DNA of 63,972 nt, counting the filler, from Gonapodya sp. JEL0774 (Eukaryota), in NCBI GenBank assembly GCA_027604505.1. It is 4 parts of 4 records of this genome, joined end to end, with 100 filler letters (N's around TTAATTAATTAA, not from the genome) between each part and the next. Parts side by side here need not be neighbours in the genome. Positions count along the whole stretch, not along the records: positions 17,613 to 35,037 come from JADIIX010000271.1; 3 more parts are not named here. One strand, given 5' to 3'. Of the stretch, positions 17,513 to 52,581 are shown piece after piece. The position numbers and the translations under genes are program-made. A model generated the notes under the pieces. The model had not been told where the DNA came from. It ran no database searches and saw only the letters and a list, made by a program, of their open reading frames with translations. How positions within the stretch are numbered: position 1 is the stretch's first letter; each line of letters opens with the position of its first letter.

Positions 17513-17612
17513 NNNNNNNNNNNNNNNNNNNNNNNNNNNNNNNNNNNNNNNNNNNNTTAATTAATTAANNNNNNNNNNNNNNNNNNNNNNNNNNNNNNNN
17601 NNNNNNNNNNNN
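17513..17612. other. Assembly gap/linker (N44-TTAATTAATTAA-N44)
   Basis: Six-frame stop linker flanked by Ns; identical blocks at 35038 and 52482. Confidence 0.95.
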
Positions 17613-20140: not shown

Positions 20141-21358
20141 TTACTTGCAGGGGCTTTTCGGACCTCCGCCTTGGCACTCATCCTTCACCGTCACTTTCGG
20201 ACTGTAAAAGCAACCACAGTTCTGGTCAGTGCAGCTTGGAAGAAAGCCGTTGATTTGGCCATCAATCTGAGTAAAAGCACGACCGATGAAAAGGAATGCT
20301 TCGCATGAGAACATCACGCACGTCGTGAACATGCGCATTTTGAAGTTTGCCTCACCAAACCACATTCCAGTCCCACCAAGAGACCGATTGGACCCAAGGC
20401 AGCTGAGACGATGCCGCCTATTAGAGGGCACTTGAGCTTGGAAAAGCCGTACCTGGAGTTGGTGAAAGCAGGATTCCGGTTCGGATGTCTTAGTACACAA
20501 ACAGAAACGTAAGGCAGAACTTGAAAACACACTCAATATAGCATTCGAGGGACGACTTGCATCCGTAATACCATCCGCCCTCGCCGTTCGCAAAATCGGG
20601 CGTCTTGCCATGGTTCTTTGCGTTGCAGTCTCGCACAACTTGTGGCATACAACTACTGTCGAGTCCGGAACATTTCGTTACCGGAGCAGGAGGTGGAGGA
20701 GTGGGTGGTGATGGCGGTGGTGGGGCTGAGGAAATGCCAGTTATTCTGCCACAGACGTAGTAGTTTGGATCTCCAGAGATGGGGCTAACGTAAGCAATGG
20801 CTGACGAGGACTTCAGCCGGACGGCAAGAAGAAAAACATCACCTGGTCAGCGCAACCGAGACACAACTTCGATTACAGAAGTAGGTACAAGGTGCTCACC
20901 TTGAGGTAGCACATCCCGTCTGCGGTCCTCACATACGCTCGACATGGGTCAGACTCATACGCACGCAACGCGCACTGTCTTCCGCAGTCGCGGTCTAAAC
21001 TGTTAGTAGCATGGCTGATATCGATCACCGCCCTAAATTTAACCAGGTGATGTTTGGACATGATCAGTTCAATGATTGTCTCGGATGTAGCGTCCCATAC
21101 TCAGAGGACGCGAACACAATATGATCACTCACATGTTCGGGACACTTGGGAAGTGACAACCATTCGCCCAGTACCATGTCACGCCGGAACCACCTTGCAA
21201 GGATGCAACGTTTTCGATTAGCTCTGCCGGGAAACGGTGCAATCGGCAGTCCTTTCCATGTTCAGAAACTCACCGATCACGGGACCTTGCCAATTGAAGT
21301 CGGCTAGAGCGCTTGGCAGAGCAAGGCTTAGGAGCACAAGTGCGAAAATGCCGATCAT
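20141..21358 (-). CDS. Secreted Cys-rich protein: signal peptide, PAN/apple-like domain, Pro linker, second Cys-rich domain
   Basis: MIGIFALVLLSLALPSALA; DCGRQCALRAYESDPCRAYVRTADGMCYLK; SAPPPPSPPTPPPPAP; C-terminal ...CTDQNCGCFYSP..ECQGGGPKSPCK*; multiple GT-AG introns. Confidence 0.72.
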
Positions 21359-22864
21359 CGCTGGCGCAGTAGCTAGTGGAGAGATTTGGAGCGGTTCGTG
21401 CGCGATTACTGGTGGTCTAGGGGAAATGCCGCGTCGAGATTCTCGCGGGATGTGCTTGATGTGGATTTGAGCTCAAACATGCGGGGCTGGTGATTTTATA
21501 TTGGATGTGAAGAATGGGCGACAGGGGCTGTTGTGCCTGGGAAACTGTTCTCTAGTGCACAGTCCGCGGCTGCTGATTGTTTTTGATGCGGCGGTACCCG
21601 AAAGCGTTCTTTGGGTTCCATCGGGGAAATTCTCAATTTCACATGTTCTACCTGGGCATTTTGTCCTTGTGCGGGAAGGACGGATCTCCCAGTCTTACAC
21701 GATTCGTACCGGTGCCGAGTTTCGCCATTTCTCGGCCCTCGCCAGAGCCCTGTCCAAAACGCTGATTCCTCCCGTTGATAATACCTTTCGCACCCTCACG
21801 AGTCATGCGCAAGACAAAAATGAGCGAAGAAGCTGTGTGAGCTCGGCACCTCGTACGGGGGCACCTTGGCGCAGAACGGGGTGTCACGAATTGCAGAAGG
21901 TCGATCGATCTCACACGACCAGTCGAATGCAGGAGTAGCCAAATCTTTATCGACAAGCAGCAAAGAGCTGTGATTTACCATTAGTGCATGCGTTAAGATA
22001 CATTCATGTTTTCAGGGTCGCCGGCGACCGATGAACACACCCGATTCTGGCCGGGGCCACGACCAAGCCACGCAATATAGCAGTTTCCACACCTACTTCA
22101 CAGTGCTGGAGTGCTGGGAAATCCTGAAAAGTGATACGCTACAGGAATTTAAATGTCTACCTTGTACTTCGCGCACTGGTCATTTCCAGTCGAGCTCATC
22201 CGATGTACACTTCGACAATCACGGCTATGTATCCATGGTGCAAGTCACCATTGCACTCGAGGAACGACTTCTACTTCATTGATTCTGTCCGCGATTCCAT
22301 TTCATTTACCAAGGGAGTCGGATGGTAGTTCTGTCAAGAGTCCCGAGTCAAGAGGTTGACGGTCAGCGTCTTCTACTCAGTATACTCAGAAGCGATAGTT
22401 AAGTTGGCAGCTAAATGTGAGAGAGATTGCCGGAAACTCCCATGAAGGTGAAGATCGAGTCTCGACGCAGGCTAAGGTCTGAAGTGCGAAATGCATACGA
22501 ACGGAATGGTTAAATGAGAAGTACATTTCTACATATGTCGATGACTGGGCGAGGAAGCCTAAAGGGTCGATGCCGAATTGCAGCTGCTGGTTCAGACAGC
22601 GGCACTAAAGGTGTACTTGTGATCAAGGTACTAGGAAGCTCACTAGCGTTTTGCACAATCAATCAAAGGGAATGAGAGCGCCAGTCCCGCCAATCAACCA
22701 GCCCTTTTTAAGCGACAGTTCCCCTGAATGTGTGGAATGTGTTTTTTTGTTGTTTGGCCATCGGGTGTGGCGGAATTACGAAGCCTCCAATAATTGCGGC
22801 GAGGACAGACCTGCCATAATTGGCTCTCCACTAACGTTCCTTCCAAACCAATATACCCCAAATA

Positions 22865-25569
22865 ATGATTCACTCGCATTCTCATCAAATACCGTACTGG
22901 ACGATTTCAGCGCTGGTCGCTTCTGTCCTCTCGATCGTATCGGGTCCCGGAGTTCGAGCTCAGAATCAAGCAGCCGATTGCGCAGTGTTCGAACAGTTGT
23001 TTTCCCAAGCAAATGTGGAGCTTCCGTGGACCAGAGGAAGCTGCTGCGGATGGTGAGTGGTCGATTTTCTGCACGGTGGTGATTGGTCGACTTGCTCATT
23101 CTCACCAAATTCTCCACAATTTGCGCACCAATGTCGGTCAGGGCAACTGGACTCTCTGACTATCAACAGATCACATGCACCAATAACGGGACAGATGGTC
23201 GAATTGTTGAGGGTTTGCTCAGCAAAATGGGGTTTCCGGGGGCGACCATCCCGCCTCTCGCATCGCTGGACAGACTGCAACGACTGGATCTCGATACCAA
23301 CGGTCTCGTGGGCACCATCCCTCCACTCGCGTCGCTCATCAGGCTTCAGTACCTCTGGCTACACAACAACTCGCTCACCGGTCCCATACCCGACATGTCC
23401 GGTTTGGTGAACTTAGGAACACTCGTCCTCTACTACAATAATGTGAGTGCTGCTGCACTGGATGTCATAGCAGCGAGTAAAGTGGCGGAGAATGCCCTGA
23501 GACCACTGGGAGTGGAACAGGAACATGCCGGAACTTGCATCGTTACATGACTCTTGAGTTGTTGGGCACCGACTTATCCGTTTTCGTATACTTCACCAGC
23601 TCACCGGAAATATTGATGGTGTCCTACCCCCAAACGTCGGTACCTGTACGATAACATACGGGGAAACTAATCAGGAACTCTACACCTGCAACAGCAGCTA
23701 CCCTGCAGAATGCAACTCAGTAGCCAGCAGAGCACAGTACTTTACGAAACAAACCGCCCAATTCTGCGCAGCTGCGGCTGCGGCTGCTGCAAGTGCATAT
23801 TCGACTGCATCAGATTCTCCTACGACTGCTGCAAGTGGGGCTGCTTCGACCATCGCATCGTCGGGCTCTCAACCGACTTCAACGGCTGTCGTAGCGCGCC
23901 AACCCTCAACTTCTACGGTTTCTGTCGTCAATTCAGCGTCTGGGACCTCCCTATCGTCGACCGGCGCATCCGATCTCAACGCCAACAATGACAAGGACAA
24001 GAAGGGATCGGGAATCTTGATTCCGACCGTTTCCGCAGTCGCGGCAGTGCTCGTCATTGGAGGTGCTCTTGTGGCGTTTGTTTTTGTTCGCCGGTCTCAG
24101 CTTAGAAAGGAAGCTGCTGGAAATGGAGGTAAGTTGATCGTCCCCATCCGAAACCTGTTGGCCGGACTCTGCCCAACAACTGGCCCACCGACCAGCTTCC
24201 CCAACCAACACTTCGCCCCCGGGACCCTACAAACAACCAACAAACACATCCATGTCTCTTTCAACGACAAGTGACACTACATTACGGAAAGACGGCGTCA
24301 GTTCTCAAGGAAGTAAGCGCACTCTCGTGTCCGGAGGCTCAAACAACGGATCACAGCAGATTTCGGGGACCGAAGACTTGATGAGCGAGGTATGTTTTTC
24401 CGGTGATTGCTCTTTCGTTGCATTGATCCATATATTATTGAACAATTTCGTCGGCCCCATTTTGACATATTCCCGTTCGTTTTGTACGTCTCGTAATATC
24501 ATTTAGTCGCCTCACTGGACGTTCATGTACTTTGCCGGAGTGAACAACAAGTACGCCCGACAGATTGATTTGCCCGCTGGGAGTCCTGTATTGTGGGTCG
24601 AAGAGGAGGTGAGTGTTTCGGGATGATAAGTTTTCGGAGGATGGCGAAACGAATGGAGAGGGACAGAGTATCGTGAGCGAGGATACATCTCTCTATCTCC
24701 TGCTCTATTGCTCGCTTCGCTTGGAGTTGGTACCGCGGATCAACATCACGACGGTCCCGACTCCCGACGTTGGTTGTCGGTTCTCAACCCATGTTTCCGA
24801 TCCATGTTTCCTCTATCCGATCCCCATGCGCCTTTAGTTTGTTCCAAACAATAGCGACGAAGTCGCGGTGCGCCCGGGTGACCAGTTTAAACTTCGAACG
24901 GCCTTCCGTGATGGTTGGGGGTACGGTCGGAACGTGGAGACTGACGAGGCAGGATTACTTCCCCTGTAAGTCACGACATTGCACCAGACCTCAACACGGT
25001 GGCATTTTCATGCACCTTATGGTGTCTGTATTCCCTCAATACTCATGCATGCGTACGTATCCGCCGTATGTGCACAGCGACCATCTCCGTCTCGGCACAG
25101 AACCACAACCACCTCCCTCAGCATACCCATACGGCCGTGTAGAGTCATCAATGCGGTTCCCCAAACAGCAGTACCAACAACCAGGCTCTGGTCGGTCCAA
25201 TACCACGGCGTACGAATCCAGCCCGAGTTCGTACTCGCGATCCAACTCGTCGCCCGGAAGCGGAGTGACCCTGCAGGGTGGCCTCGTCGCTCCGTCGGAT
25301 GCCCTTCCTCTGATTCCCTCGGGAGTTGCGATGATGCCAGGGTACAGCCGACGGCAAGAAGTGAGTGTAGGGTCACACATTCTTAGTAATTTCAAAGTGC
25401 TGATCATCGGCGACAATGTGTGTGTGAACCACAGTCACCATATTCGCAAGCAATGGCGGAAAATAGTTACTCGCAATCCATGGGGTACACCCGAGACGCT
25501 CCTAGCAGACAATATCCGCAGTCTGGAGCTTGGGGAGACGTACGCGGTCCGGAACAAGCAAGGCGCTGA
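22865..25569 (+). CDS. Single-pass receptor-like protein: signal peptide, plant-type LRRs, Ser/Thr stalk, TM, SH3 domain, Ser/Tyr-rich tail
   Basis: 8 exons (22865-23052, 23142-23442, 23600-24128, 24196-24389, 24507-24608, 24838-24965, 25078-25360, 25435-25569) splice in frame. LQRLDLDTNGLVGTIP and LQYLWLHNNSLTGPIP; TM VSAVAAVLVIGGALVAFVFVRR; SH3-like FVPNNSDEVAVRPGD..RDGWGYGRN..GLLPL. Confidence 0.88.
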
Positions 25570-26544
25570 GTGGCACGAAGCTGAAAGCAGTTTCTATTGG
25601 AGTACTGCTTTAATGGATCCGACGAGACCGCTGCTGTGCAGCGTGCCCACACGCCATTATTCGTGTCATGTAACTTCCTGAATTTATAATGCTGCAGGTT
25701 GGCATCATCTTGATTGAGTTCAACATGTTGACCGGCATTTTTGATCAAGTGCGCGTCATTCATATGATTCGAAGTCATATTTCGTTCCGAAAAAAGCAAA
25801 ATGAATTGAGCTGTCCAACCGAAGTTCAAGAGTCTCATCCATTGACGATATAAGTCGACCCCATCACAACCATACTTGGTTCCCGTGAGCGCAACACACC
25901 AACACCTCTAACACACTATTATACACGAGCACTTTAGCAATGTGTGGTCCGTTTATTCCAGAATTCGATTTTGTCCCTGTTTCGGACGAATCGCTTGGCG
26001 GGTCTGGGCTGGATCGGGATCAACGTGGGGGCGAACCAGGGACCGACAAAGTTCGGGGGACAGGGAGGGACAGGCAGTCCGGTGACAAACGAAAATACAA
26101 CACGGCCAGCACTTTCATCGCGTTTTGATTTGTTAATACAAATATTGCTAAGTCGTAGCTTTACAATTTTTAGCCCCCCCTTTCCGGCTTAAACGACCGG
26201 ACAAACCGCGCCTGGGTTCTGTGTTGGAGCCCACAGTTGGAATGTTCCGGGAGGCGCCAGTCCTGAGATTCAATGCGCCTGTGAATCTGACACTTAAGAG
26301 CGACACGAACAAGAAATCGCGCAATTTGAGTGACGCTGGACGGGAAATGTGAGCATCTGCTTGGCTATTTCGGCGTGGCAGAAGCCATGATTGGAAACTG
26401 TTCAACCTCCCCGCCAGCATCGACCCCCAGGCACGGACAGTGCGATCTCCAGACTCCACCTATCGCTGCACACTTCCAGCAGTTCCTAGGTGTCGCTGGC
26501 GGCCTTCACTGAGTGCCAATCACCTCCGATCCGCTGGTCAGACC

Positions 26545-27219
26545 ATGCCGGCGATGCTCGATCTGTTCAACGACTGGATCGACATCTGGATCGGAAAACT
26601 TCGATCAGCAAGACTCAGACACGCACGACCACCGTCACCACCAGTACAGGAATACGTCCCCGTTTCTGGTCGCAGTCTGGACGTGGACTCGCTTCGCGGT
26701 CGTGACAGTGGTGCAGCCCCTTGCACTGCTACCACAACCGGCTCTTCCCCCGGAATTACCTTACCTCCTCCCTCCCCACCACACTCCAATCGAAAACAAC
26801 ACTCACATTCTCCACATCTTATAGCACTTCCAACTCCCCCACCATCTCGAAATTCGTCGCCTGTGGTTCCAATGCCACCTTCGGTGCCTGGCAGACCCCG
26901 CTCCATCGCGTTGAATCCACCGACACAGCCCCAGCCCTCCACTATATTGCATTCGTCGCACCATCGATCCCCTCCACCCGAACGCCATATTTCTCCCAAA
27001 AGTGCAAAACCCGTCAGTGTCACCTCACGCCGTTCCTCTGCGTCGAAAATATCATCCGTACCGGCACCTCTACCACCCGTCACAGTAACACTGGTCCGGG
27101 CGGACTTGCATCGGAAACACGTTCAGCCTGTGGAAGTGATGAGGAAGCAACAGTTTGCGCTCTCAAGGCCTTCGACATGGCATGGGTTGGACGATGAGGT
27201 ACACCACGCGGATCGGTGA
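26545..27219 (+). CDS. Hypothetical Pro/Ser-rich protein
   Basis: Uninterrupted 224-codon frame from MPAMLDLFNDW; no family recognised. Confidence 0.5.
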   Translation: MPAMLDLFNDWIDIWIGKLRSARLRHARPPSPPVQEYVPVSGRSLDVDSLRGRDSGAAPCTATTTGSSPGITLPPPSPPHSNRKQHSHSPHLIALPTPPPSRNSSPVVPMPPSVPGRPRSIALNPPTQPQPSTILHSSHHRSPPPERHISPKSAKPVSVTSRRSSASKISSVPAPLPPVTVTLVRADLHRKHVQPVEVMRKQQFALSRPSTWHGLDDEVHHADR

Positions 27220-27739
27220 TCTCGGAGACGGAGAAAAGGGAATTGCGGACGGTGAGTGTGTGTATAAATTTCACAGTGATGGGCACTCTGCTGATATACT
27301 GCGTATCCGCGTTCAACACTTTTATCAGAATTATAGTCGACTCGTGGCTCTCGACAGTCGACACAGAGGACGTTTGCATGTTTGACTCGACGGGTCTGGA
27401 ACCCAACTCGATTCCCATCTATTTTTGTGACTTCCTTCCAACTAAATTTCTTATTTTCCCGTGGGAGGTGGTTCCGGTGGAACTCTTTCTTTGTCGTCGG
27501 GTCAGGAATATTCAATGCAAGGGATCATAGTTACAGCTTACACAGTACCCATTGACAATTGTTCGTGTATACATAATAAAAATCGTTTGGCTGTTTGAAA
27601 TGCAACTTGTGTCCCAACAATGGATGCGTTTGTTAATTCAACGTCACATCGATAAAATGTATGGTTCCGGTCCCAATCTGACGACATCGGAAAGAAGCAA
27701 CAAAACACAGATCACAGGACACCATTTGGCAATCATAGT

Positions 27740-28798
27740 TCAGTGTATTGAAGGCGACCACGAGTCCTCAAGCGACAAGCTCTGGTTGAGCACTCGCGTG
27801 TCCACCTCGGTCCGCGCGTCACCCACTACCGCTCCGGGTAACCATCCACCCGTTTCCTCCAGTGGCGAGTTCGGGATCATTGTCAAGCTCGTCGATTTCC
27901 CAAGGGGTTGCGGCGAACGCTCGGTGTGCACTTCTCTTCCGGAATCTCCGTCGAGGTTCATTCGAGGCTGCTCGCCGACCGTCGGCGCTATCCTGACTGG
28001 GGACGGACCAACACTCGCTGTCGGGTCATGCGGCGGGATAACAAGCAGTCGGGGGAGAGGTGGGCTCGGTGGTGGGGAGTTTGGAGGCGGTGGGAATGAG
28101 GAGGACAGACTGGTCGAGGCAGAAGATGTCGGCGAGAGAGGTGGTTGCGAAGGAGGTGGGGGAGTGGAAGGGGTTGCACAAGAGCTTTCAAGAGGTCCAA
28201 CGTCTGATACAGTCTCCAAAAATGTGCCTGGATGCCACGGTGTCGTCGGAGGCGGCGAGGTCAAGCCAGTCTGCAACCCTGATCCGTGTCCCGAAAACAA
28301 CGAGTTCAAACTTCGTGCGGCTCTGAGAGGCCACTTGCTGTGACCCTCTAGTCCCAGATGGACATCAAGCGCGGATGTAGGAGTGGTGGAGGGCCCATTC
28401 GCTTGATCTTGTGAGGGAGACCTCACGTGCCCACTTGCTCGACTCTTGGGGTAGTTCGCCAACTTTTCTCCACTACTGGTGTTGCTAGACACGGGGCTTA
28501 CAGGCAAACTTATTCTGCGATCGCGAGAGCTCTCACGATTGATTCCCATGGTTTGGTTTCCGGGAGATTTACCGTTTGGAGTTGGAGGTGGTCCTTCGAA
28601 CCCGGCAGGAACCGCAGGGAAACTGCTCGCCGCTGAGCTCGTCTGACTGCCAACAGGAGACGATGTACTTCCATGCTGAGTTTTCCGCTTGAAGATGTTG
28701 GTGAGACTCGGCGGTTTGATATGCATTGGTTGAGACGGGTAGAGCAGGATCAGAGTGCCTGCAGTGATGAGACACCAAGACGAACCGATTGATTGCAC
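27740..28798 (-). CDS. Hypothetical Ser/Pro-rich protein (start may be the MHIKPP codon near 28726)
   Basis: 352-codon ORF, low complexity. Confidence 0.5.
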   Translation of the reverse strand: MQSIGSSWCLITAGTLILLYPSQPMHIKPPSLTNIFKRKTQHGSTSSPVGSQTSSAASSFPAVPAGFEGPPPTPNGKSPGNQTMGINRESSRDRRISLPVSPVSSNTSSGEKLANYPKSRASGHVRSPSQDQANGPSTTPTSALDVHLGLEGHSKWPLRAARSLNSLFSGHGSGLQTGLTSPPPTTPWHPGTFLETVSDVGPLESSCATPSTPPPPSQPPLSPTSSASTSLSSSFPPPPNSPPPSPPLPRLLVIPPHDPTASVGPSPVRIAPTVGEQPRMNLDGDSGREVHTERSPQPLGKSTSLTMIPNSPLEETGGWLPGAVVGDARTEVDTRVLNQSLSLEDSWSPSIH

Positions 28799-29270
28799 GA
28801 ATATTCGATGATGGCGATCCCGATTTGAATATGAATATGGTACAGCGATTTAAGAGTGGACGTGCGAAGTCTGTGCGTCGACAAATTGTGATCCCAATCG
28901 ATCGGTTGATGCCTCACTTCACCACCTGCCGGGAACAAACATACAAACATAAGGCATCACACCCAAAGTAAAGTTGCCAATTGTGCAGGTCAACAGTACG
29001 GAGTTTGCCGTGACACGGTGTTACAGTAGGTATGAGAGAAGTAGCATTCAAGACAAGAGCTAATGGGTGGTAGCCCTTTAGCTTCATAGATATAATGCGC
29101 AGACTACGAGTATCCTAGACATAGTGACCAAAATTGCCTGTACGGACACTATTAAGTGTTCAATAAGGTTATCGATCCATCTGAATTTCGCAGCGGCAGT
29201 AGTCCATGCGCATATCACAGCACACAATTCTGCCGTGACCACTTTACCCTTGGAAATCTATCGCGAATAC

Positions 29271-32201
29271 CTAAGACCCTCGAGTATCCTCCACCACCTT
29301 CTCCAGTTTCGATACTGCTGGCTCATCCGTCGGTGCCTCTCCATTTTTGCCGACCAATTCATCGCGGTGGGGTAACTTCGATCCATCGAGGCCCATCTCA
29401 ATGAGTAGTCCATCGGCCCATACTGCTCCTGGTTCCGCTGGTGTCTCAATGACAAGTGGAGATGGGGGTGGTGGTGCAGAGATGGGCGACGCGCGGGGTA
29501 GGTGAGCGATGTCGAACGATCCAGATTTGGTTCCAGATCGTCTCCTGATTGCGGCTCCGAAAAAGTCCAGTCGCAGTGAGCGTGGTCGAGACATCGAAGG
29601 TTGAGATGCGGGAGATGTCGGTGACGAAGGAGCTGTTTCATCCGGTTGTGGGGGTTCTCCACCAGTGTTGACAGATCCAGGTGCTGATTCAGTTGCCTTA
29701 TCGACTGGTACAGACTTGGCCCTGGATCGTCGGAAAGTATTTCGTCGACCTAAACTTCCGAACCAGCCGCCTCTGACATCAATTGCACTTCCGTCTGGGC
29801 CAGCTGCTGATGTGGCGTCTTTTGTTACCGTTTCCACTACGAATGCTTCGCCGTCCCCATCAACATTCTTTGCCACGCTCATTCTTTTGCGCCCCGGTGG
29901 TTGATCATTTCCTCCAGCTGAAAGGTGCCCCCCAGCATCCCCCCACCCGTCATGCGAATCGTAGCTCACGCGCCCCTTGACGCCGGAATGACCGAGCACT
30001 ACATTGGGGACAGGAATACTAGGCGGAATTGGTGCCGGAGGTTTCGCCACCGAGATGATCACGTGCGATGGTGCGTGATACGAAGGAGTCGAGGACCGAG
30101 GTCTTGCTCCACGGCGACCAGCCAGAGTAGAGGCAGACGATGTCTTCCGCTGGAGAGATGAAGAATCATAGTGGCTGCTGCTTCCAGAGTTCAGTCCACT
30201 TGTAAACGAAAGACGTGAATCTGGTCCGGCGAAAGATTTGCCCAATACGTCGGTGGGAGATACTGCGACTGCCTGGTGTTGAGTGTTTGTCGACGGCGCC
30301 ACTTGCAGGTCCAAATCTGGTAAGTCTCGTCCCTCTTCAAAGTTCCAGCTGAGTGAAGACGGTGCACCGATTGACGAAATTGATGTCATGGACGTTGTCT
30401 TTGGGATAGGACTCGCGGGGGGCAGTCTGTATCGCTCCTCGATATTCGAATTCGAGTACATGACAGACGAACCACCGAATGACGAGCGGGGAGCTGGGCT
30501 GCCGGACAAGCTTCGACGGGATGGGTCTTCAGTGGACTGACGAATAGCTGACCGAGGTCTCGACGAGGGAGTGGAAGGTCGACCCGAAACAGGGGACGGG
30601 GGATTCTGAATGTGCCCAGAAGACACCAAAGCCGGTGTGAGAATTTTAGGTGATGCATCAGTGGAGTCTAGGCCAGTCCCGCCGGTGGATATACGTGCGA
30701 GCGGTATAGTTGCAGAACGGGAGCGAGGTAAGACAGCCACCTCCTGGGTATGTGACAAAGCGGTTTGGGTTGCAGCGCGAACAGGTCCCTGAGACCGAGG
30801 AAGTGCATATGCGGATTGGGGGCTTGAAGAGTTCGCGGGGTTGTCGGAAGCCAGGGGGACGTGCGTGAGGTGTCGTGATGCTCGCAAGGAGATTGGCGAT
30901 GACGGCGGCCCATACTCTCCGCTCGTCGGGGACTCATTCAGCACCGCCATGTGATGTTCGAATGATGAAAATGCTGCACGTAAGCGTCCAACATCGGCAG
31001 ATTCAGGGAGGCGAGGCGGTGACATTGAGACTGATCCCGATTTACTGGACAATCCGCCCCCAGTGTCGGGCGTGCGAGAACGTCGATTAAGGGAGATTGA
31101 GCGTCTTACGACCGCCTGCGCTACACGTTCTTCGAAAGTTGACATGACACGCGCTAGACCGGTATCTGACAGGGTATCCGGATTGAGGTCTGGAGGAAGA
31201 ATTGGTAAAGAGGGTGGTATCGAAGGAATCGTTGGAGGACTGGAATGCCTGACTTGATCTGAGAGAGTGCGAGAGGATGCACCGTGTATAGTGGCTGCCC
31301 GACTCAACGACCGACTGCGACCACGGTTTACCGAAGAAGTGGATTCCGCCGTGAGAGACGAAGCAGATTTGGCAGAGGGCGTAGAGATACGCTTCTCAGG
31401 GTCCGTTACAGCGCGTGTGGGACCTGGGTTACTGATGGGCCTTGTACGACTCTTGGTCGCCTTCACAAGGGAGCCGGCTGAAGCATACCGGCGCAAAGAT
31501 GGGTCTGGCTGTTGAAAGAATTCGCGCGGGTTTGAGGTGGAGGCTTCACTTTGATCGATGGGTGTCTTTGAGATCGATTGAATAGCGTCAGCATCCTGGG
31601 TACGGCGAACATTGCCTCTCTTCCAAAATGCTGTCCGATGGCCCAACGAGCCAAGCGAAGGTGGCGTCCGGGGTACTTCGGCAATCTGGGGTCGATCATC
31701 AAACGACACACGCGATCGGGATGAAGGGGCAATGTGGGCCGAACTCGCAGCGGAGGGTGCCCTGGTGTTGTTGGTCGGTGGGGGTGGTGCGAGGTTGTCA
31801 GCATCGCCTATGGGTGAGGTGTGATGCAAAGCATGGTGCACTGTGGTCGATTGAAATGATGTAGCATCTACAACGGGACTTTGTGGGGGAGATGGATACT
31901 GCTGGTGCGAGGATGTCACGTCTGTAGGCGGTGGCATCGAAGTATGTTGTCCGGAGGGCGCCTCACGACTCCCGACAGGATTCCGTCTTGCAATCTGTGA
32001 CTTGGATCGAGATAGCACAGCTTCTGCACCCCGAAGACCTGTGAATCCTGCTTTGTCCGTGTTGGTTGCATGTGGCTTCTCAGACTGTCTCCCGCCACCT
32101 GCAACTCCATTACTGCGTCCGCGGGATCCAAAAAGTCCAAGAAACGATTTCAGTATCGGATGGCTGGATGGATCGGAAGCCGTGCTTGGGGAGGAAAACA
32201 T
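29271..32201 (-). CDS. Large, apparently intronless, disordered Ser/Pro/Arg-rich protein
   Basis: 976-codon uninterrupted ORF; no recognisable domain. Confidence 0.7.
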   Translation of the reverse strand: MFSSPSTASDPSSHPILKSFLGLFGSRGRSNGVAGGGRQSEKPHATNTDKAGFTGLRGAEAVLSRSKSQIARRNPVGSREAPSGQHTSMPPPTDVTSSHQQYPSPPQSPVVDATSFQSTTVHHALHHTSPIGDADNLAPPPPTNNTRAPSAASSAHIAPSSRSRVSFDDRPQIAEVPRTPPSLGSLGHRTAFWKRGNVRRTQDADAIQSISKTPIDQSEASTSNPREFFQQPDPSLRRYASAGSLVKATKSRTRPISNPGPTRAVTDPEKRISTPSAKSASSLTAESTSSVNRGRSRSLSRAATIHGASSRTLSDQVRHSSPPTIPSIPPSLPILPPDLNPDTLSDTGLARVMSTFEERVAQAVVRRSISLNRRSRTPDTGGGLSSKSGSVSMSPPRLPESADVGRLRAAFSSFEHHMAVLNESPTSGEYGPPSSPISLRASRHLTHVPLASDNPANSSSPQSAYALPRSQGPVRAATQTALSHTQEVAVLPRSRSATIPLARISTGGTGLDSTDASPKILTPALVSSGHIQNPPSPVSGRPSTPSSRPRSAIRQSTEDPSRRSLSGSPAPRSSFGGSSVMYSNSNIEERYRLPPASPIPKTTSMTSISSIGAPSSLSWNFEEGRDLPDLDLQVAPSTNTQHQAVAVSPTDVLGKSFAGPDSRLSFTSGLNSGSSSHYDSSSLQRKTSSASTLAGRRGARPRSSTPSYHAPSHVIISVAKPPAPIPPSIPVPNVVLGHSGVKGRVSYDSHDGWGDAGGHLSAGGNDQPPGRKRMSVAKNVDGDGEAFVVETVTKDATSAAGPDGSAIDVRGGWFGSLGRRNTFRRSRAKSVPVDKATESAPGSVNTGGEPPQPDETAPSSPTSPASQPSMSRPRSLRLDFFGAAIRRRSGTKSGSFDIAHLPRASPISAPPPPSPLVIETPAEPGAVWADGLLIEMGLDGSKLPHRDELVGKNGEAPTDEPAVSKLEKVVEDTRGS

Positions 32202-33052
32202 TCTCGGATGGCGGATATCGAGGGGAGAGCCACTTTACAAGGGGGACGTGAACCGAGAAACAGAGATATCGGCACGCCAGAGCAAAAATACAAGCAACAT
32301 CGAGCTATGAGTCTATCGTATGATTCCTGAGGACCTTTGACGTTGAACTTACAGCTATTTTCAGCTCTCCCAAGGATCGGCGAATTGCCCCGCGATACCG
32401 TCCCCGGCGATCTGACACGTATACAAGGAGTTTATTCGAAGCTTGAAGAGCGATTGCGTTGTCGTTTCGACTCGTCTCCGGATGATGGGCCGTTTAATGT
32501 ATATTGGATTCAAAATATACACAAACGGCGTCGTGGTGAAGAGTGTGGTACAGTTTCTCTCCCCGCGAACTATATCCCCGTCTCGTGAGAACAAACATTG
32601 AATATACAGTTCAATACCCAGTTCTCACTCGTCTTATGTCTCTACCTTGTGTCTCTTCCGGTGGTGTGCAGTCATTCTTTAAGAGTTGACTGTCGGACTG
32701 ACACCCTTATTGGGACTCAGCCGTTGACCATCTCAAACATTCCAGCCACCGACGTCCTAGCAGTCGACATCACCAGACCAAATGAGTACCACTTCACGAA
32801 TATTGATTACTGACTACTGTTATATTCAAAACGGATTTACGTTCTGTACCACTTTTACTACAGGACAATGCCTGTTATTAGTCCATTGGCACGTCCATTC
32901 TTGGATCTCGAATATTAAATCGCACTCTGATACTTTGGTTCCTTAGGCACCGGTTGACGAAGGTCACTCCGGCGGCCCACGTACGTACTGTGATCAATCA
33001 GAGTCCCATAACAAGAACCGGAACATTATGATCCCAATCAATGCGACCGCAA

Positions 33053-34350
33053 TTACGTGCAGAAAAGACCCACCACTTGAACTGTGTCCGGTGGTCCCAA
33101 ATTGTCAGAAAGCAGGCGGCTTCCTGTGCCAGGTCTGATCGATCTCACACTCCCCGCTGCTCTCTCTTGTCGAGTTGCTATCACCTGACTGGTAATCTCG
33201 GATGCACGGGAGTCAACGCGTGTTTGTCCAGAAGAAATGGAGTGTGACGCGGTTGGCATAAAGTCAGAGAGACGCAGGCAGTCCCTGTGAAAACAATATG
33301 ACATGATATGTGTCCCGCACGAACGGTAAAACACATCACGAATTCCCACAGTGGAATAAGCCCGTACGCTCCAGTGTCAACCTTGAACATACAAGTGCTG
33401 AGCGCGTCATGGTAACTGCATTTTGCAAGATGGATGACTCACGTTCCCGGCAAGCCCCCAACCATCGCGGACAACATATTTGACTTCGAGAAAGTTTCCC
33501 TACATGCTTCAAATTAGATAAAATCTTTAACATGTGCAAAGAAAACACACCACTCACGGGAAATACGGCTATTTCATCCGCAGCAGTGGGGTTGTAACCC
33601 CCCAGAGCAATGATCGGATTGCCGGTATAAGGAACCATCTTAGCATCCATCATACCCAAGGGACCGGCTATCCGCGCAAAAAACCACTATTACGAGGCAA
33701 GAGTGTGGGCAAGTTTACCGCGATGCACAGTATGGTACTCAAAGCTTACGTGCGGTGCCTGCCAGGATTACATAACAAGTTATATTGATGTTCACATCTC
33801 GCACTCCCACACGCAACGAAAAAACGCAAACAACGTACTTGCAGATTTGCCTCGACAGATCCTGAAACTGGTCCATGAATCGGTCCAAGGGGAGGAACGG
33901 TCTTGTCTTCCAAACGGGCGCGACGTCCACGCCTGTGGATAAAGAAAGCGGCCACAGAGAGCGCAATCACCGCACATCCCCCAACCACCGCTCCGACAAG
34001 CACACCAATAGATTGGGAGCTGTCGATAAACAGAGAGATCTTCTTAAATGTCGTTGGCGGCGAATTGCAACACGCCACCCACCTGTTCCCGGGGGAGGAT
34101 ACTTGATCAGCAGAAGTTAAAGGGACGGAAGAAGGGGCCTGGCTCTGAAGAGGAGATGTTGGTGGTGGAGTAGGGCCGACAGTAGGTGGTGGCGGTGACG
34201 AGCCAGGTGCTGGAGTGGGGCCGCCAGTAGGTGGTGGCGGTGACGAGGCGGGTGGCGGTGGGTAAGGGGGTGGTGTACGGTAACCAAACGGAGGGGGGGG
34301 TGTAGTTGGAGGAGGAGGAGGAGGAGATATGTGATCGAGACATTTTGGAC
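33053..34350 (-). CDS. Pro-rich stalk + TM + SH3 receptor-like protein, paralog of the 22865 gene; both ends uncertain
   Basis: SPPPPTGGPTPAPGSSPPPP stalk; TM IGVLVGAVVGGCAVIALSVAAFFIHRR; APH (9-nt exon 33750-33758)-WFFARIAG; YNPTAADEIAVFP-GNFLEVKYVVRDGWGLAGN-VDTGAYGLIPL-DCLRL. Confidence 0.75.
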
Positions 34351-34716
34351 GGGAGACAGGAGACAGGAGACGGGAGATGGGAGACGGAAGACGATAATGC
34401 GGTCCTGTTCCGGTTCCCGTGCGCGTGTGCGTGCGTGCGTGCGTGGATGGGTTTGGTGGGTGGGGTCTAGGTGGTCCAGACCCACCCTACCCCAGAGCAT
34501 CGTTTCGAGGCAGGGGGGCGAGGCTCCACGGCATCGGGGGGTCATCACTCCACATCCACCCCAATGCACCCACCGCGCTCACCGCGCTACCGCGTCGCGT
34601 CCGTCCCTCTCGCGGGTCTCGCGCACGTGTGTCTCTCCCTCCTTCACGCTCTCACTCTCCCGCCGTGCCGCACACTCTACCCATTACCCATTACCCCCAC
34701 CCCGCCCGGCCCCCAG

Positions 34717-34908
34717 CTTCCTCCGCTTCGACCCCCACTCGATCCGCTTCATGCAGCTCCGCTCGATCCCGCTGAACCCCTCCGCGGCCCGCGTGGGGCT
34801 GGCGGTGCGCGTGCCCGGCAGCGACGCGGGCGAGAAACTGGCAATCTTGAGCGGGATCGTGGCGAGACTGGACAGACCGGCGGCGAGTTATGGAGTCGGG
34901 ACGTATAA
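34717..34908 (+). pseudogene. NMA111: Isolated exon of an Nma111/Ynm3 (HtrA-like PDZ serine protease) gene
   Basis: FLRFDPHSIRFMQLRSIPLNPSAARVGLAVRVPGSDAGEKLAILSGIVARLDRPAASYGVGTY matches the Nma111 VGNDAGEKLSILAGxISRxDR region. Flanked by CAG and GTGAGT; no upstream exons recognised; gap downstream. Confidence 0.7.
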
Positions 34909-35037
34909 GTGAGTAGCGTGGGCGGGTGGGGGGGGGGGGGGGGGGGGGCGCGGGCGGGCGGGGGGGCGAAGTGGGGGAGCCGCACAGTTGGCTATGGGTT
35001 TTGGTTTGGGGGGAACGTACAACCCTTGAACCTTCCA

Positions 35038-35137
35038 NNNNNNNNNNNNNNNNNNNNNNNNNNNNNNNNNNNNNNNNNNNNTTAATTAATTAANNNNNNN
35101 NNNNNNNNNNNNNNNNNNNNNNNNNNNNNNNNNNNNN
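35038..35137. other. Assembly gap/linker
   Basis: N44-TTAATTAATTAA-N44. Confidence 0.95.
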
Positions 35138-38880: not shown

Positions 38881-41800
38881 TCAAACCACCTCCTTGGCCA
38901 ACTTCTCCCCCTCACCTTCCCCGACCTGGTGGATCTCCTCCCCGGTCTCCAAGTCCACGTGCAAGAGATCCGCGATCTCTCCCGGCCCGCCAGGCGCCAT
39001 CTGCTTCTTCCAGTGTTCCTCCTCGTTGGGTGGGAGGATCGGGATGAAGATGGATGGGAAGGCGAGGCCCACAAGGGAAAGGGCCACCATGCATACGCCG
39101 ACGAAGAAGCTGGAGTGGTGGGGATGAGGCGGGAACGGAGGGGAGCACGGTCAAAACTAACGGGTGCGGTTCGCGCCAACGACGTGCATCGGCTGGACAC
39201 GTACCCGAATCCGACAAGCTGCATGGGGAGTCCCTTTGGCTCCTTGACACGCGCAGCAAAGTCGGCGAGAGAGAAGGACGCGATAACTGCGTGGTTAATT
39301 CGGTAGGAGACCCACCGTCCGTCACACGTGCGTCAGCGATCTCCCAGGTGCACTCGAACGCAAAAGCCACAACCCCCACTCAAACGCACTGAGCAAGATT
39401 GGTCCGGTGACAAACTTGACGATGACCGCCCACGCGAGCGGAAGACCCCAGTTTCCCGGCGTCCGCTCGACGACGGCATTGATGTCCTTGCGGAGTTGGT
39501 CGATAGAGTAGAGGTTGAGGTAGTAGGCCTTGGCCAAGGCTGGCGAGAATCCGAGGGTGGTGGTGGGTTCCTTGGCCAACAAGTAGGATCCGAGGAGGCC
39601 GACAATGGCGAGAATGATGCCGGTGACTGTTGATGAATTCGGTGCGAAAACATTGATTAGCTGGGAGGAAAAAAGCAGTCCGATTCTGGTCGAGCTACTT
39701 ACTCAGTCCTGCGATGGAACTTGCTTCGTAAGCCACGATGATCGCCACGGTGGGAGAAAGGATGTAGAACGCGGCGTGGGCGATGAAAGCCCTGGGGCCG
39801 ACCTGGCTGATGACATCTTGGTAGCGATAAAGATAGCTAGCTCCGAAGGAGTATGCGTAGCCGAAGAGTACCATGCCAAGCTCTATGTTCAGGAGCGAGC
39901 GGTGATCAGGTTTCCGTGGTCCCCTCCAAGAGACTCGTCGCATGAACACTGGGCTCACCGTTGGTGTACTTGTCAACGTAGTCGAGCGCGTCTAGACCAA
40001 ATCCAGTGGTGTAGAACAGACCTTCAACGATACATGAGCGGGGCGTGAGAACAGTTGCCACGCACACACGCGGATACCAGATGCACACCCATGAGGCAGC
40101 CAAAAATGCAGAGGAACAGCAAAATCACGTCCTTGCGCAACCCTTTGAAGAGTCGAGCGTCGTAGAGACTCGTGGAGAGCGTCTCGACGAGAGAGATCGC
40201 GGAGTCGATCCCCAACATGAAAACGTTGATAAAGAACAGAACAGACCATACGTTGGCGCCAGGGATTCGAGCCAGAGCCTCTGGATAGGTCAAGAATCCG
40301 AGGACGAACGTGCCGAGCGACGTTTGTGACGGGTCGAGGTTGAGGAATCCTGCGACACCGAACGCTGCGAAAGCGGCGAGCATTTCGAACGCGGAGTTGG
40401 CGAGGGCGACGATGACAGACTGTTGACGGATGTGAACAATCGGCACGGAAAATTGATCGTGTGACTGTGCCAAAGGTTACACTTACATCCTGGACCGCGT
40501 TTTGTGTGACGGGATTGTAACTGCCGTATGCTGAATAAATACCGCAGCAGATACCGATGGAGAAAAAGATTTGGCCGACGGCTGCCGTCCACGGTTTGGT
40601 CGACGAGATGTTGTCGCTTCGCCACGTGGCTGCAGTGGGTGAGATATGGTGGTTGAATGTCGGTTGATCCTTCCCAATACGGAACTCGGAAGCGATCGGT
40701 TCGCACATACCGATGTAAAGCTTGACTCCTTGCCATGCATTCTCCAGAGTGACACCACGAACAATGATCACGATCAACATGAGCAACGGGTAGCCCCTGT
40801 GTGATGCAATATACTCGTGAGAAATCACCTCGCAAGAGATCGAACGACCAGTTCTCACTCACATGGTGATGTACACGACTTTGCCGAGCAGGACGGGACT
40901 GAGAGCAGAACGCGCGGTATGTGCGTTGCAACTTTATTGTACGGATACAAATCTGACCGACGAGGGAATTCACTCACCCTCTGAACGTTGCAAAGTAGGC
41001 AAACACCCACACGAAAATGAGACAACCAAACAGAGCCCAATTAATAGATCCAGTACCTTCCTCGCCCGCAGAGAGATCCTTGTAGCCAACAATCGTTCTA
41101 CGAAAGTGTTGAGACTGTAGTGAACGGTAAAGCAGAGAAAAGTCTCTCTCATAGTGACAATTCACCCGAAAAAATAAGCAGCCACGCTCGGGGAACCACC
41201 ATCGACAGTCCAGGGTAGCGGTGAAGTAAACGATTTGATCTTAAGAAGTCAGGAAATGTTACTATTTCCGGAGACTTGATCAGAAAGAGGTGGCACACTC
41301 ACAAAATACAAAACGCCGTACGCAACGATTGGAACATAATAAGTGGCGACAATGTAGCCAGTAATTTGTGATGCCAACCCCTTCACACTCAGTGAACAGT
41401 AAGTTCGACCTCAATCTTGCAATCTCGTAACCGGATGAATTACCATTCCTCGCAATCGGGGATGCACTCGACCAAATGCAGTGACGGCGCCTGAACGCGA
41501 AATCTGACCAAGAATCATTTCCATGGCAAGAAGTGGAATTCCTGAAAAAGAACGAAAGTAGTACATGTTACGTGATTCGCCTGGCAATCTCCGAACGCAT
41601 TTGCTAACCGCACCAATCAAAAACAGGGCCATGAGATAAGGAACAAACCACTGGAGTCCATAGTTACGCCATGCTTGCGAGGGATCTACAATGATAGTCA
41701 AGACGATCCAGTCCAGTTGCTTCGATTCAGTGATGTGTGGACACTCACATCTAAACATGTTTCCAAGACCTTTCCGAGACAAAGCGAGGAAATCAAGCGA

Positions 41801-52481: not shown

Positions 52482-52581
52482 NNNNNNNNNNNNNNNNNNN
52501 NNNNNNNNNNNNNNNNNNNNNNNNNTTAATTAATTAANNNNNNNNNNNNNNNNNNNNNNNNNNNNNNNNNNNNNNNNNNNN
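52482..52581. other. Assembly gap/linker
   Basis: N44-TTAATTAATTAA-N44. Confidence 0.95.

What the first reader, a model, noticed from the sequence alone, without database searches (positions are those of the whole stretch)
33053..34350. Second receptor shares a 'PHW..AG-SH3' cytoplasmic module: a modular receptor family
Seen: APHWFFARIAG...YNPTAADEIAVFPG..VRDGWGLAGN..GLIPLDCLRL aligns with SPHWTFMYFAG...FVPNNSDEVAVRPG..FRDGWGYGRN..GLLPLDHLRL of the LRR gene. Both carry a phase-2 intron in the same PL|D position. The extracellular side here is a Pro-rich stalk rather than Ser/Thr-rich. The APH tripeptide is a 9-nt microexon (33750-33758). Inference: a conserved signalling tail is paired with variable ectodomains, as in immune-like receptor repertoires; the PHW segment may be an undescribed SH3 extension.
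Basis: partly seen in the sequence, partly recalled or inferred. Interest (0 to 1): 0.72.

Follow-up and report, generated by a model that had tools for sequence, protein, structure and literature searches.

The report
Membrane receptors sharing an extended SH3
Two genes 8 kb apart in the zoosporic fungus Gonapodya encode single-pass membrane proteins that share an SH3 docking domain carrying a conserved extra segment predicted to form a helix. The same module follows at least three kinds of outer domain in about 60 related protein groups, so it likely marks a lineage-specific family of kinase-less surface receptors.

Summary
The minus-strand gene B (34343-33053) and the plus-strand LRR gene A (22865-25569) lie on one 17,425-nt contig of Gonapodya sp. 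JEL0774. They share an 82-residue cytoplasmic module: 31/82 identical, local score 157 against 33 +/- 5 for shuffles. Two intron positions are shared, including the phase-2 PL|D intron. The 9-nt APH microexon (33758-33750) has good splice signals and restores a His kept in 54 of 60 relatives; no RNA data could be had.

A full HMMER scan found 60 representative proteins with the whole module ((P)HWxF..[LV]AG...VPY.G.P plus SH3). All 30 that I looked up, plus P0001 and P0002, are Gonapodya. 49 of 60 have a membrane helix upstream. Outer parts are LRR (13), Cys-rich (17), short Ser/Thr-rich (15), other (4), or none/fragment (11).

With this alignment AlphaFold2 folds the module as one body (pLDDT 95.1): a helix over HWxFxxxA, a short strand, then a normal SH3 barrel (Z about 10 to solved SH3s). 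Most members lack two canonical ligand-binding tyrosines.

"Immune-like" and all function remain untested. Gene B's 5' end is unresolved: its only ATG is one base out of frame with the rest of the gene.

The parts
33053..34343 (-). Gene B: single-pass membrane protein with extended SH3 tail (six exons as modelled; about 320 codons in the frame that holds the membrane helix)
   Evidence: Splice model with GT..AG at every junction. Module homologous to gene A and to 60 relatives.
34341..34343 (-). Only candidate ATG of gene B; one base out of frame with the rest of exon 1
   Evidence: The ATG frame stops at 34111-34109.
34293..34300 (-). Run of 8 C. One C fewer would join the ATG frame to the Pro-rich/TM frame
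   Evidence: Inference; not verified by reads.
34096..34342 (-). Pro/Ser/Thr-rich N-terminal (presumed outer) segment of gene B, including a 45-nt x 2.1 tandem repeat at 34161-34254
   Evidence: Composition P 34%, S 15%, T 10%. Tandem repeat.
33938..34009 (-). Gene B membrane helix (IGVLVG...AAFFI) followed by HRRGRRAR
   Evidence: Hydropathy up to 2.49 over 19 residues. Coordinates.
33750..33758 (-). 9-nt microexon GCACCGCAC = Ala-Pro-His, flanked by ..ctggcAG and GTAAGC
   Evidence: Chance 26/200,000. Supplies the His kept in 54/60 relatives. No RNA evidence.
33269..33758 (-). Gene B extended SH3 module (APHWFFARIAG ... GLIPLDCLRL), split over five exons
33285..33349 (-). Phase-2 intron in PL|D of gene B (GTGGGA..CAG, 65 nt)
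22865..25569 (+). Gene A: signal peptide, plant-type LRR ectodomain, Ser/Thr/Ala stalk, membrane helix, linker, extended SH3, disordered tail. Eight exons; the last is 25435-25569
   Evidence: model. P0001 (NCBI HDU93_004725) is identical from exon 2 on. Exon 1 is supported by P0002. LRR.
24014..24088 (+). Gene A membrane helix (ILIPTV...AFVFV) followed by RRSQLRK
24507..25093 (+). Gene A extended SH3 module (SPHWTFMYFAG ... GLLPLDHLRL), three exons
24966..25077 (+). Phase-2 intron in PL|D of gene A (GTAAGT..CAG, 112 nt)

Best explanation
Gene B (34343-33053, minus) and the LRR gene A (22865-25569, plus) are two paralogues of a large Gonapodya family of single-pass membrane proteins. Their cytoplasmic part is an SH3 domain with a conserved N-terminal segment predicted to form a helix, and they likely act as kinase-less surface receptors or anchors that dock a cytoplasmic partner at the membrane.

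Shown:
- the shared module and two shared intron positions;
- 60 representative relatives, with an upstream membrane helix in 49;
- at least three ectodomain types;
- two well-supported module subfamilies, with gene A in one and gene B nearest the other.

Predicted: HWxFxxxA forms a helix and, with a short strand, packs onto the SH3 barrel as one domain.

Inferred:
- N-terminus outside and C-terminus inside, from Arg/Lys after the helix and from the signal peptide plus LRR of gene A;
- the outer part binds something in the wall or medium, or simply anchors the protein;
- the extended SH3 recruits a partner through a linear motif that is probably not a classical PxxP, because two of the canonical groove tyrosines are absent in most members.

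There is no catalytic domain in either gene.
For: - Homology of the two tails: score 157 against 32.9 +/- 4.8; 31/82 identical; shared phase-0 intron before S/A-PHW and phase-2 intron in PL|D.
- SH3 identity: the tail profile hits 86 PDB sequences at E<=10, and the 60 shown are almost all SH3-domain proteins; best is the p47phox SH3 at 1.8e-5. Pfam SH3_1 gives E 2.3e-4 on one exon. The AF2 model matches solved SH3s at Z 10.1-10.5, rmsd 1.4-1.9 over 60-62 residues.
- Family: 457 hits at E<=1e-3 among 1.84e9 representatives. 60 of the 151 stored proteins (the 150 listed plus P0002) carry the full-length module.
- Taxonomy: 30 of 30 looked up are Gonapodya, 23 G. prolifera JEL478 and 7 G. sp. JEL0774.
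- Extension conserved: H 54/60, W 51/60, F/Y 60/60, A 43/60, G 35/60. It is folded confidently: pLDDT 95.1, pTM 0.83, helix 6-12, strand 21-23.
- Membrane helix upstream in 49/60.
- Ectodomain census: LRR 13, Cys-rich 17, short 15 (Pfam).
- Gene A ectodomain matches plant LRR receptor ectodomains; its orthologue P0002 hits FLS2 at 7e-42.
- Groove residues: Trp 58/60 and Pro 59/60 are kept. The first ALYDY-type Tyr is present in 3/60 and the PxxY-type Tyr in 4/56, where Cys is commonest at 23/56. The mapping of these positions onto the SH3 consensus is from my own knowledge plus the alignment.
- Gene B keeps every highly conserved module residue (sequence against columns).
Against: - No expression data for either gene.
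- Gene B has no in-frame start codon, and no protein containing its exon 3 was found in the public protein collection. It may be unannotated, mis-assembled or decaying.
- No ligand, partner or localisation is known for any member.
- Pfam SH3 scores are mostly below gathering thresholds. 34 of 58 members reach E<=1e-3 (my count from the table).
- I could not see model coordinates, so where the helix packs, on or away from the peptide groove, is unknown.
- Taxonomy is known for only 32 of 60 members, so 'Gonapodya-specific' is a sample result.
- Ectodomain classes rest on simple rules (Pfam or an LRR regular expression, Cys count, length) and on public gene models. Some models are clearly fused (P0045, P0144, P0094) or truncated (11 without a membrane helix).
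- The module tree has only 87 columns, and 38 of its 57 inner branches are unresolved.
Confidence: 0.68

Rival explanations
1. The family is the Gonapodya counterpart of yeast Fus1p-type proteins: membrane-anchored SH3 scaffolds for cell fusion, polarity or wall integrity rather than ligand receptors. The short Ser/Thr/Pro-rich N-termini would be glycosylated stalks, and the LRR and Cys-rich forms later elaborations.
For: - Same layout as Fus1p: a type I membrane protein whose long cytosolic tail has an SH3 near the C-terminus and a Pro-rich region (PMC2063912, passages).
- The Fus1p SH3 has a specificity without prolines (PMC2756588, passages). This family also lacks canonical groove tyrosines.
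- 15 of 60 members have only a short N-terminal segment before the membrane helix.
- Gene A has PQPPPSAYP right after its SH3.
Against: - No sequence comparison with Fus1p could be made, because no Fus1 sequence was in hand.
- No non-Gonapodya protein was identified among the full-length module hits whose origin I could check.
- A single-copy scaffold role does not explain about 60 paralogue groups.
- LRR and Cys-rich ectodomains suggest binding functions.
Confidence: 0.2
2. Gene B is a pseudogene or a mis-assembled locus. The shared module is real, but this copy is not translated as modelled.
For: - The ATG at 34343 is one base out of frame with the membrane-helix frame, which has no Met upstream.
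- None of the 19 GT..AG pairs that would restore the frame has a donor like the 12 used in genes A and B.
- No public protein contains exon 3.
Against: - All five introns keep GT..AG, and the frame is open from 34486 to the TAA at 33055 across six exons.
- All highly conserved module residues are intact.
- A single-base error or allele in the C8 run at 34300-34293 would give MSRSHISSSSSSNYTPP joined to the Pro-rich frame.
Confidence: 0.15
3. The HW segment is not a structural part of the SH3. It is instead a separate linear motif, for example an intramolecular pseudo-ligand that masks the SH3 groove until the receptor is engaged, or a site for another protein.
For: - It is short and aromatic, and linked to the barrel by a variable stretch (module positions 14-24).
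- Conserved residues fall on one helical face, at positions 5, 6, 8, 11 and 12. That fits either packing or ligand mimicry.
Against: - AF2 places it with pLDDT 90-96 and pTM 0.83 for the whole 87 residues, which fits a fixed part of the domain.
- The distance from the motif to the barrel is nearly constant in 60 members, with few gaps.
Confidence: 0.15
4. The likeness of the two tails is only the general likeness of any two SH3 domains; there is no special module.
For: Pfam sees only SH3_1 and SH3_9.
Against: - The likeness extends 26 residues upstream of the barrel, with H-W-x-F-x-x-x-A-G kept.
- Generic and multi-SH3 proteins in the same search match only profile positions of about 30-90.
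- Two intron positions are shared.
Confidence: 0.02

Closest known systems
Saccharomyces cerevisiae Fus1p (cell-fusion membrane protein)
   Same: Single membrane helix and a short Ser/Thr-rich outer N-terminus (as in gene B and 15 relatives). The cytosolic tail has one SH3 domain and a Pro-rich stretch. The SH3 has non-classical specificity (PMC2063912 and PMC2756588, passages).
   Different: No sequence relation was tested. Fus1p is single-copy, while this is a family of about 60 groups. No HW-helix is described for Fus1p, but I have not seen its sequence. Many members here carry LRR or Cys-rich ectodomains.
Basidiobolus LRR-membrane-SH3 proteins
   Same: Small plant-type LRR ectodomain, one membrane helix, divergent cytoplasmic SH3, no kinase. 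This is the same layout as gene A.
   Different: I could not obtain those sequences, so common descent and presence of the HW extension are untested. Those notes state the combination was found only in Basidiobolus; Gonapodya has it too.
Plant kinase-less LRR receptor-like proteins and small LRR co-receptors (SERK/BAK1-type ectodomains)
   Same: The gene A orthologue P0002 matches plant LRR receptor ectodomains (FLS2 7e-42, SERK1/2 about 1e-9). It has an N-terminal Cys-capped LRR block, a stalk and a single membrane helix.
   Different: There is no kinase; the cytoplasmic part is an SH3 domain, which plant receptors do not have. The organism is a fungus. A 2010 survey reported that fungi almost entirely lack LRR receptors: five LRR+TM proteins in 49 fungal genomes, none with another domain (PMC2939053, abstract and passages).
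Yeast Sho1 osmosensor
   Same: A membrane protein whose only cytoplasmic domain is an SH3 that docks a signalling partner (title and abstract of PMC4411306, from the search listing only).
   Different: Sho1 has four membrane helices and no ectodomain. The proteins here have one helix upstream of the module.
Classical SH3 domains (p47phox, RasGAP, Fyn/Src, JIP1) and the FUT8 SH3
   Same: Same barrel: Z 9.4-10.5, rmsd 1.2-1.9 over 58-62 residues. Profile E values down to 1.8e-5. The groove Trp and Pro are kept.
   Different: About 25 extra N-terminal residues, conserved and predicted to be ordered. Isolated SH3 structures align only from model residue 21-29 onwards. FUT8 chains cover 13-87 through parts of their catalytic domain, without a higher Z. 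Two canonical tyrosines are mostly absent.

Membership tests
SH3 domain superfamily (Pfam SH3_1 / SH3_9) | Significant sequence match to SH3 profiles or known SH3 domains | tested here: met
   The tail profile hits 86 PDB sequences at E<=10, and the 60 shown are almost all SH3-domain proteins, best 1.8e-5. Pfam SH3_1 gives E 2.3e-4 but 21.1 bits, below the 22.9 cut-off. 34 of 58 relatives reach E<=1e-3 (my count).
SH3 domain superfamily (Pfam SH3_1 / SH3_9) | Five-stranded beta-barrel fold | tested here: met
   AF2 model pLDDT 95.1. Z 10.1-10.5, rmsd 1.4-1.9 over 60-62 residues to solved SH3s. This is a prediction, not a solved structure.
SH3 domain superfamily (Pfam SH3_1 / SH3_9) | Canonical peptide-groove residues (two Tyr of ALYDY, Trp, Pro, Tyr of PxxY; consensus recalled) | tested here: inconclusive
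   Trp 58/60, Pro 59/60 and second ALYDY aromatic 54/60 (Y or F) are kept. First Tyr is present in 3/60 and PxxY Tyr in 4/56. This is a divergent groove rather than a missing one.
Fus1p-type membrane SH3 proteins | One membrane helix with SH3 in the cytoplasmic C-terminal part | tested here: met
   Genes A and B. 49 of 60 relatives.
Fus1p-type membrane SH3 proteins | Sequence relation to Fus1p | not tested
   No Fus1 sequence was available to any call. The searches returned no named Fus1.
Fus1p-type membrane SH3 proteins | Role in mating-cell fusion, pheromone-induced | not testable with these tools
   No expression or genetic data.
LRR receptor kinases / Toll-like receptors | Extracellular LRR plus one membrane helix | tested here: met
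   Gene A: LRR_4 at 1.2e-8, plant LRR ectodomain matches, membrane helix. Gene B has no LRR.
LRR receptor kinases / Toll-like receptors | Cytoplasmic kinase or TIR domain | tested here: not met
   Pfam finds only SH3 in the cytoplasmic part of P0001, P0002 and the relatives.
Sho1 osmosensors | Four membrane helices before the SH3 | tested here: not met
   One hydrophobic segment in gene A (besides the signal peptide) and one in gene B.
Basidiobolus LRR-TM-SH3 proteins (earlier notes) | Same domain order LRR - membrane helix - SH3 | tested here: met
   Gene A and 12 further representatives.
Basidiobolus LRR-TM-SH3 proteins (earlier notes) | Sequence relation and shared HW extension | not tested
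   The sequences could not be retrieved. A look-up by sequence found no look-alike window.

The most novel reading that the evidence does not exclude
Gonapodya carries a large, lineage-specific repertoire (about 60 paralogue groups) of kinase-less surface receptors. In it, interchangeable ectodomains (plant-type LRR, Cys-rich, mucin-like) all report through one dedicated, structurally extended SH3 docking domain with a non-PxxP specificity. This would be a fungal receptor system built on an adaptor domain instead of a kinase or TIR domain, and the first sizeable LRR receptor family in the fungal kingdom.
Probability: 0.3. Interest if true: 0.8.

Novelty: new variant of a known kind. Interest (0 to 1): 0.6.

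Why it matters
Fungi have been described as almost entirely lacking LRR-type surface receptors. PMC2939053 found five LRR+TM proteins in 49 genomes, none with a second domain. How zoosporic fungi sense substrates, partners or microbes is largely unknown.

This family offers a concrete set of candidates for that question:
- It has a recognisable 87-residue signature that can be searched for in other early-diverging fungi.
- It gives a testable prediction: one extended SH3 with an unusual groove should bind one class of cytoplasmic partner.
- It is a natural experiment in ectodomain exchange on a constant tail.

The extension is also a new, confidently predicted elaboration of one of the best-studied protein modules. 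It shows as well that the LRR-membrane-SH3 layout noted earlier in Basidiobolus is not confined to that genus.

Tried and rejected
- Whole genome: none is held for this window. No genome-wide census or synteny analysis was possible.
- Sequencing runs: none was listed for window 24401-34400 and no RNA holder was listed (after a length slip). Splice junctions, the microexon and the C8 run are therefore unverified by reads.
- Word-based protein search with gene B exon 3: 12 candidates, none at E<=10.
- Word-based searches with the gene A SH3 exon and with the P0001 tail: only P0001 and P0002. This search type missed the family that HMMER later found.
- Metagenome scan with the P0001 tail: 324 pattern matches, none confirmed. 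Searches were input errors.
- AF2 on the 4-row alignment A1 gave pLDDT 43.8 and was discarded.
- ESM Atlas: best scores 0.88 and 0.85, generic fungal and animal SH3 clusters. These are leads only and were not used.
- Earlier notes by place and by sequence: nothing found.
- Local profile scan of the six-frame window: no third copy. The next best piece had E 0.71.
- Nineteen GT..AG pairs could join the ATG frame to the membrane-helix frame. All have poor donors (GTTTGG, GTTACC, GTACAC, GTCACC, GTCGGC), so none was adopted.
- I suspected from memory that the plus-strand ORF at 34244-34909 begins a divergent protease-like gene, which would bound gene B's 5' end. Pfam and PDB gave nothing, so I dropped the idea.
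- Pfam at E<=0.5 on 16 members gave no credible family for the Cys-rich ectodomains. The EB module appeared at 0.0027 and 0.017, below cut-off.
- Literature: 'Gonapodya' + 'SH3' gave 0 papers. 'leucine-rich repeat' + 'SH3 domain' + 'transmembrane' + 'chytrid' gave 0. 'Gonapodya' + 'leucine-rich repeat' gave 2, both irrelevant by title and abstract. I found no description of this family in these searches. Subscription journals are not covered.
Full report
**What the window is.** The sequence is eukaryotic, with short GT..AG introns. The SH3 exon of the plus-strand gene is 100% identical to NCBI protein HDU93_004725 of Gonapodya sp. JEL0774 (P0001), recorded on a contig of 17,425 nt. The stretch between the N blocks at 17513-17612 and 35038-35137 is exactly 17,425 nt. 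The window is therefore several contigs set end to end, and both genes of the finding lie on one contig. Gonapodya belongs to the Monoblepharidomycetes, a zoosporic fungal lineage. No whole genome and no sequencing run could be had.

**Gene models.** Gene A (plus strand) has these exons (and for the last):
- 22865-23052
- 23142-23442
- 23600-24128
- 24196-24389
- 24507-24608
- 24838-24965
- 25078-25360
- 25435-25569

From exon 2 on, gene A reproduces P0001. Exon 1 encodes a signal peptide and an N-terminal Cys cap. It is absent from the NCBI model but matches the N-terminus of the G. prolifera orthologue P0002.

Gene B (minus strand) has these exons, all with GT..AG borders and introns of 58-80 nt:
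- 34342-33839
- 33758-33750
- 33686-33558
- 33499-33443
- 33381-33350
- 33284-33053

Each gene has one strongly hydrophobic segment followed by Arg/Lys (A...AFVFV RRSQLRK; B...AAFFI HRRGRRAR). I infer that the N-terminus lies outside and the SH3 inside the cell.

**Check of the observation.** The quoted strings are there. The two tails align with score 157, against 32.9 +/- 4.8 (maximum 61) for 1000 shuffles. Over the 82-column module 31 residues are identical and 47 positive: 7/26 in the PHW..AG part and 24/56 in the SH3 part. The PL|D intron is phase 2 in both genes, and the phase-0 intron just before S/A-PHW is also shared.

The microexon GCACCGCAC (Ala-Pro-His) at 33758-33750 sits between ..ctggcAG and GTAAGC. 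In 200,000 shuffles of the 152-nt interval, an AG-[A/S]PH-GT arrangement arose 26 times. It supplies a His that 54 of 60 relatives keep. It remains unverified by RNA.

**An open point at the 5' end of gene B.** The frame that runs through the Pro-rich segment into the membrane helix is open from 34486 but has no Met. The only ATG (34343-34341) is one base off and stops at 34111-34109. Nineteen GT..AG pairs could restore the frame, but none has a donor like the twelve used in the two genes. One C fewer in the C8 run (34300-34293) would do it. No public protein contains exon 3. I treat this as most likely an assembly or allelic single-base difference, with a pseudogene as a rival.

**What the tail is.**
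- Pfam sees SH3_1 just under threshold in gene A.
- A profile of the tails hits 86 PDB sequences at E<=10. The 60 shown are almost all SH3-domain proteins, the best being the p47phox SH3 at 1.8e-5, over profile positions of about 29-90.
- Nothing matched the first 28 positions.
- No third copy is in the window.

**The family.** Word-based searches found only P0001 and P0002. The exhaustive HMMER scan of 1.84 billion representatives gave 457 hits at E<=1e-3, 112 at E<=1e-10, and listed 150. Re-scoring the 151 stored proteins (the 150 listed plus P0002) locally showed:
- 60 match the profile from position 12 or earlier to position 80 or later, with more than 45 bits.
- The other 91 comprise 5 weaker full-span matches (25-36 bits; four lack the HW motif, one is P0029), generic or multi-SH3 proteins that match only positions of about 30-90, and a few truncated or intron-retaining members: P0029, P0088, P0103, P0118.

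The 60 share (P)HWxF..[LV]AG......VPY.G.P followed by the SH3. Column counts are:
- Extension: H 54, W 51, F 54 (+6 Y), A 43, G 35.
- Core: D/E of the RT loop 57 and 57, DGW 60/60/58, G75 60, P78 59.

All 30 members I could look up are Gonapodya: 23 G. prolifera JEL478 and 7 G. sp. JEL0774. The sources name them 'hypothetical', 'SH3 domain-containing', 'L domain-like' or 'RNI-like'.

**Ectodomains.** 49 of the 60 have a membrane helix upstream of the module, with 18 to 849 residues before it. My classification used Pfam or an LRR pattern, at least 6 Cys, or a length of 130 or less. It gave LRR 13, Cys-rich 17, short 15, other 4, and none/fragment 11. Three more show weak LRR signals. The Cys-rich parts match no Pfam family. 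A few models are evidently fused to neighbouring genes (P0045, P0144, P0094). P0137 has the module in front of a diacylglycerol kinase.

A quick maximum-likelihood tree of the module (87 columns) has two well-supported halves, both at 98 SH-aLRT:
- One has 21 rows: LRR 10, fragments 6, short 3, Cys-rich 2. It holds gene A.
- The other has 39 rows: Cys-rich 15, short 12, LRR 3, and others.

Gene B is closer to the second half, with mean identity 42% against 35%. Its best matches are P0019 (52%) and P0044 (51%), so it has no close orthologue among the representatives. Well-supported branches force at least 5 LRR, 6 Cys-rich and 4 short changes. Because gene models may be truncated, I read this as suggestive of ectodomain exchange or loss, not proof.

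**Structure.** With the 58-row alignment A2 (56 members plus two gene B exons), AlphaFold2 gives pLDDT 95.1 and pTM 0.83 for the 87-residue module of gene A. It predicts a helix at 6-12 (WTFMYFA), a short turn, a strand at 21-23, then the SH3 strands. The shallow alignment had failed.

- Foldseek returns SH3 domains.
- VIA-align gives Z 10.1-10.5, rmsd 1.4-1.9 over 60-62 residues for model residues of about 26-87.
- Isolated SH3 domains do not cover residues 1-20.
- FUT8 chains reach back to residue 13 or 1 through their catalytic domain, without a better Z.

I could not inspect coordinates, so the packing site of the helix is unknown. The extension alone was not folded and searched separately, so I do not claim that it has no known fold.

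**Binding groove.** I mapped the family onto the usual SH3 consensus, which is recalled and supported by the alignment. The groove Trp (58/60), Pro (59/60) and second ALYDY aromatic (Y 32, F 22) are kept. The first Tyr is present in 3/60 and the PxxY Tyr in 4/56, where Cys is commonest at 23. The second Trp of 'WW' is Ala or Gly in 50/60. I infer a non-classical ligand preference. The yeast Fus1p SH3 is a precedent, since its profile has no prolines (PMC2756588, passages).

**Mechanism proposed.**
- Shown: two paralogous genes, a conserved extended SH3 module, many relatives with different outer parts, and no catalytic domain.
- Predicted: one compact helix-plus-barrel domain.
- Inferred: plasma-membrane proteins with the outer part exposed, whose extended SH3 brings a cytoplasmic partner to the membrane. 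This is the logic of Fus1p and Sho1 in yeast (PMC2063912, passages; PMC4411306, search listing only).

Whether the outer parts bind ligands, wall polymers or other cells is untested.

**Comparison and novelty.** The layout of gene B resembles Fus1p. That of gene A resembles the Basidiobolus LRR-membrane-SH3 proteins noted earlier in this scan, which those notes thought confined to one genus. A 2010 survey found only five LRR+TM proteins in 49 fungal genomes, none with another domain (PMC2939053, abstract and passages). A 2026 paper mentions a few LRR receptor kinases in chytrids (PMC13618815, passages). My literature searches found no description of this family or of the HW extension.

I rate it a new variant of a known kind: a membrane-anchored SH3 protein family with a new domain extension and an unusual, apparently lineage-specific expansion. 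The 'immune-like repertoire' idea is not excluded, but nothing here tests it.

Noticed in passing
window 17513-17612, 35038-35137, 52482-52581: There are three N blocks, each 44 N + 12 bases + 44 N, about 17.5 kb apart. The piece 17613-35037 is exactly the 17,425-nt contig recorded for P0001. The window is therefore several contigs joined, and genes on different pieces are not neighbours.
   Followed up: partly
window 22865-23141: The NCBI model of gene A (HDU93_004725, P0001) starts at an ATG inside what I model as intron 1. It lacks exon 1 (signal peptide and the CAVFEQ...CCGW cap), which the G. prolifera orthologue P0002 has.
   Followed up: partly
window 34348-34445: Simple repeats lie directly upstream of the gene B ATG: a 7-nt unit (GACGGGA on the plus strand) x 6.6 at 34348-34393, and CGTG x 7 at 34418-34445.
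   Followed up: no
window 18104-18775 (+): An ORF on the same contig as genes A and B carries a hAT-family transposase dimerisation domain (Pfam E 2e-13).
   Followed up: no
window 29274-32234 (-): A 987-codon open frame lies between genes A and B. It is rich in Ser/Pro, looks disordered and has no Pfam match.
   Followed up: no
P0037, P0040, P0042, P0047, P0055, P0067, P0139 (HMMER hits, origin unknown): These proteins have one or two SH3 domains of the same FRDGW/PLDCL flavour but no HW extension. The SH3 is preceded by runs of short Tyr motifs (DSVY, DSMY, SMY). They may be a sister group of the family.
   Followed up: no
P0137 (Gonapodya sp. JEL0774), P0094, P0045, P0144: P0137 has the extended SH3 module at its N-terminus followed by diacylglycerol kinase domains and no membrane helix. 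P0094 (TMEM19/DUF92), P0045 (GMC oxidoreductase plus UvrD helicase) and P0144 (RabGAP-TBC) look like gene models fused to neighbouring genes.
   Followed up: no
P0019, P0002, P0036 (G. prolifera): Gene B's best match (P0019), gene A's orthologue (P0002) and another member (P0036) all lie on the same 1,043,345-nt G. prolifera contig. This hints at clustering of family members, as with genes A and B here.
   Followed up: no
other contigs of the window: 5485-6279, 7968-8633, 39995-40858, 48016-48630, 50702-51301, 61844-63972: ORF pieces here give Pfam matches to MFS transporter, choline transporter-like, sodium:neurotransmitter symporter, a putative phosphatase, casein kinase II beta and ankyrin repeats. 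These are ordinary genes unrelated to the finding.
   Followed up: no
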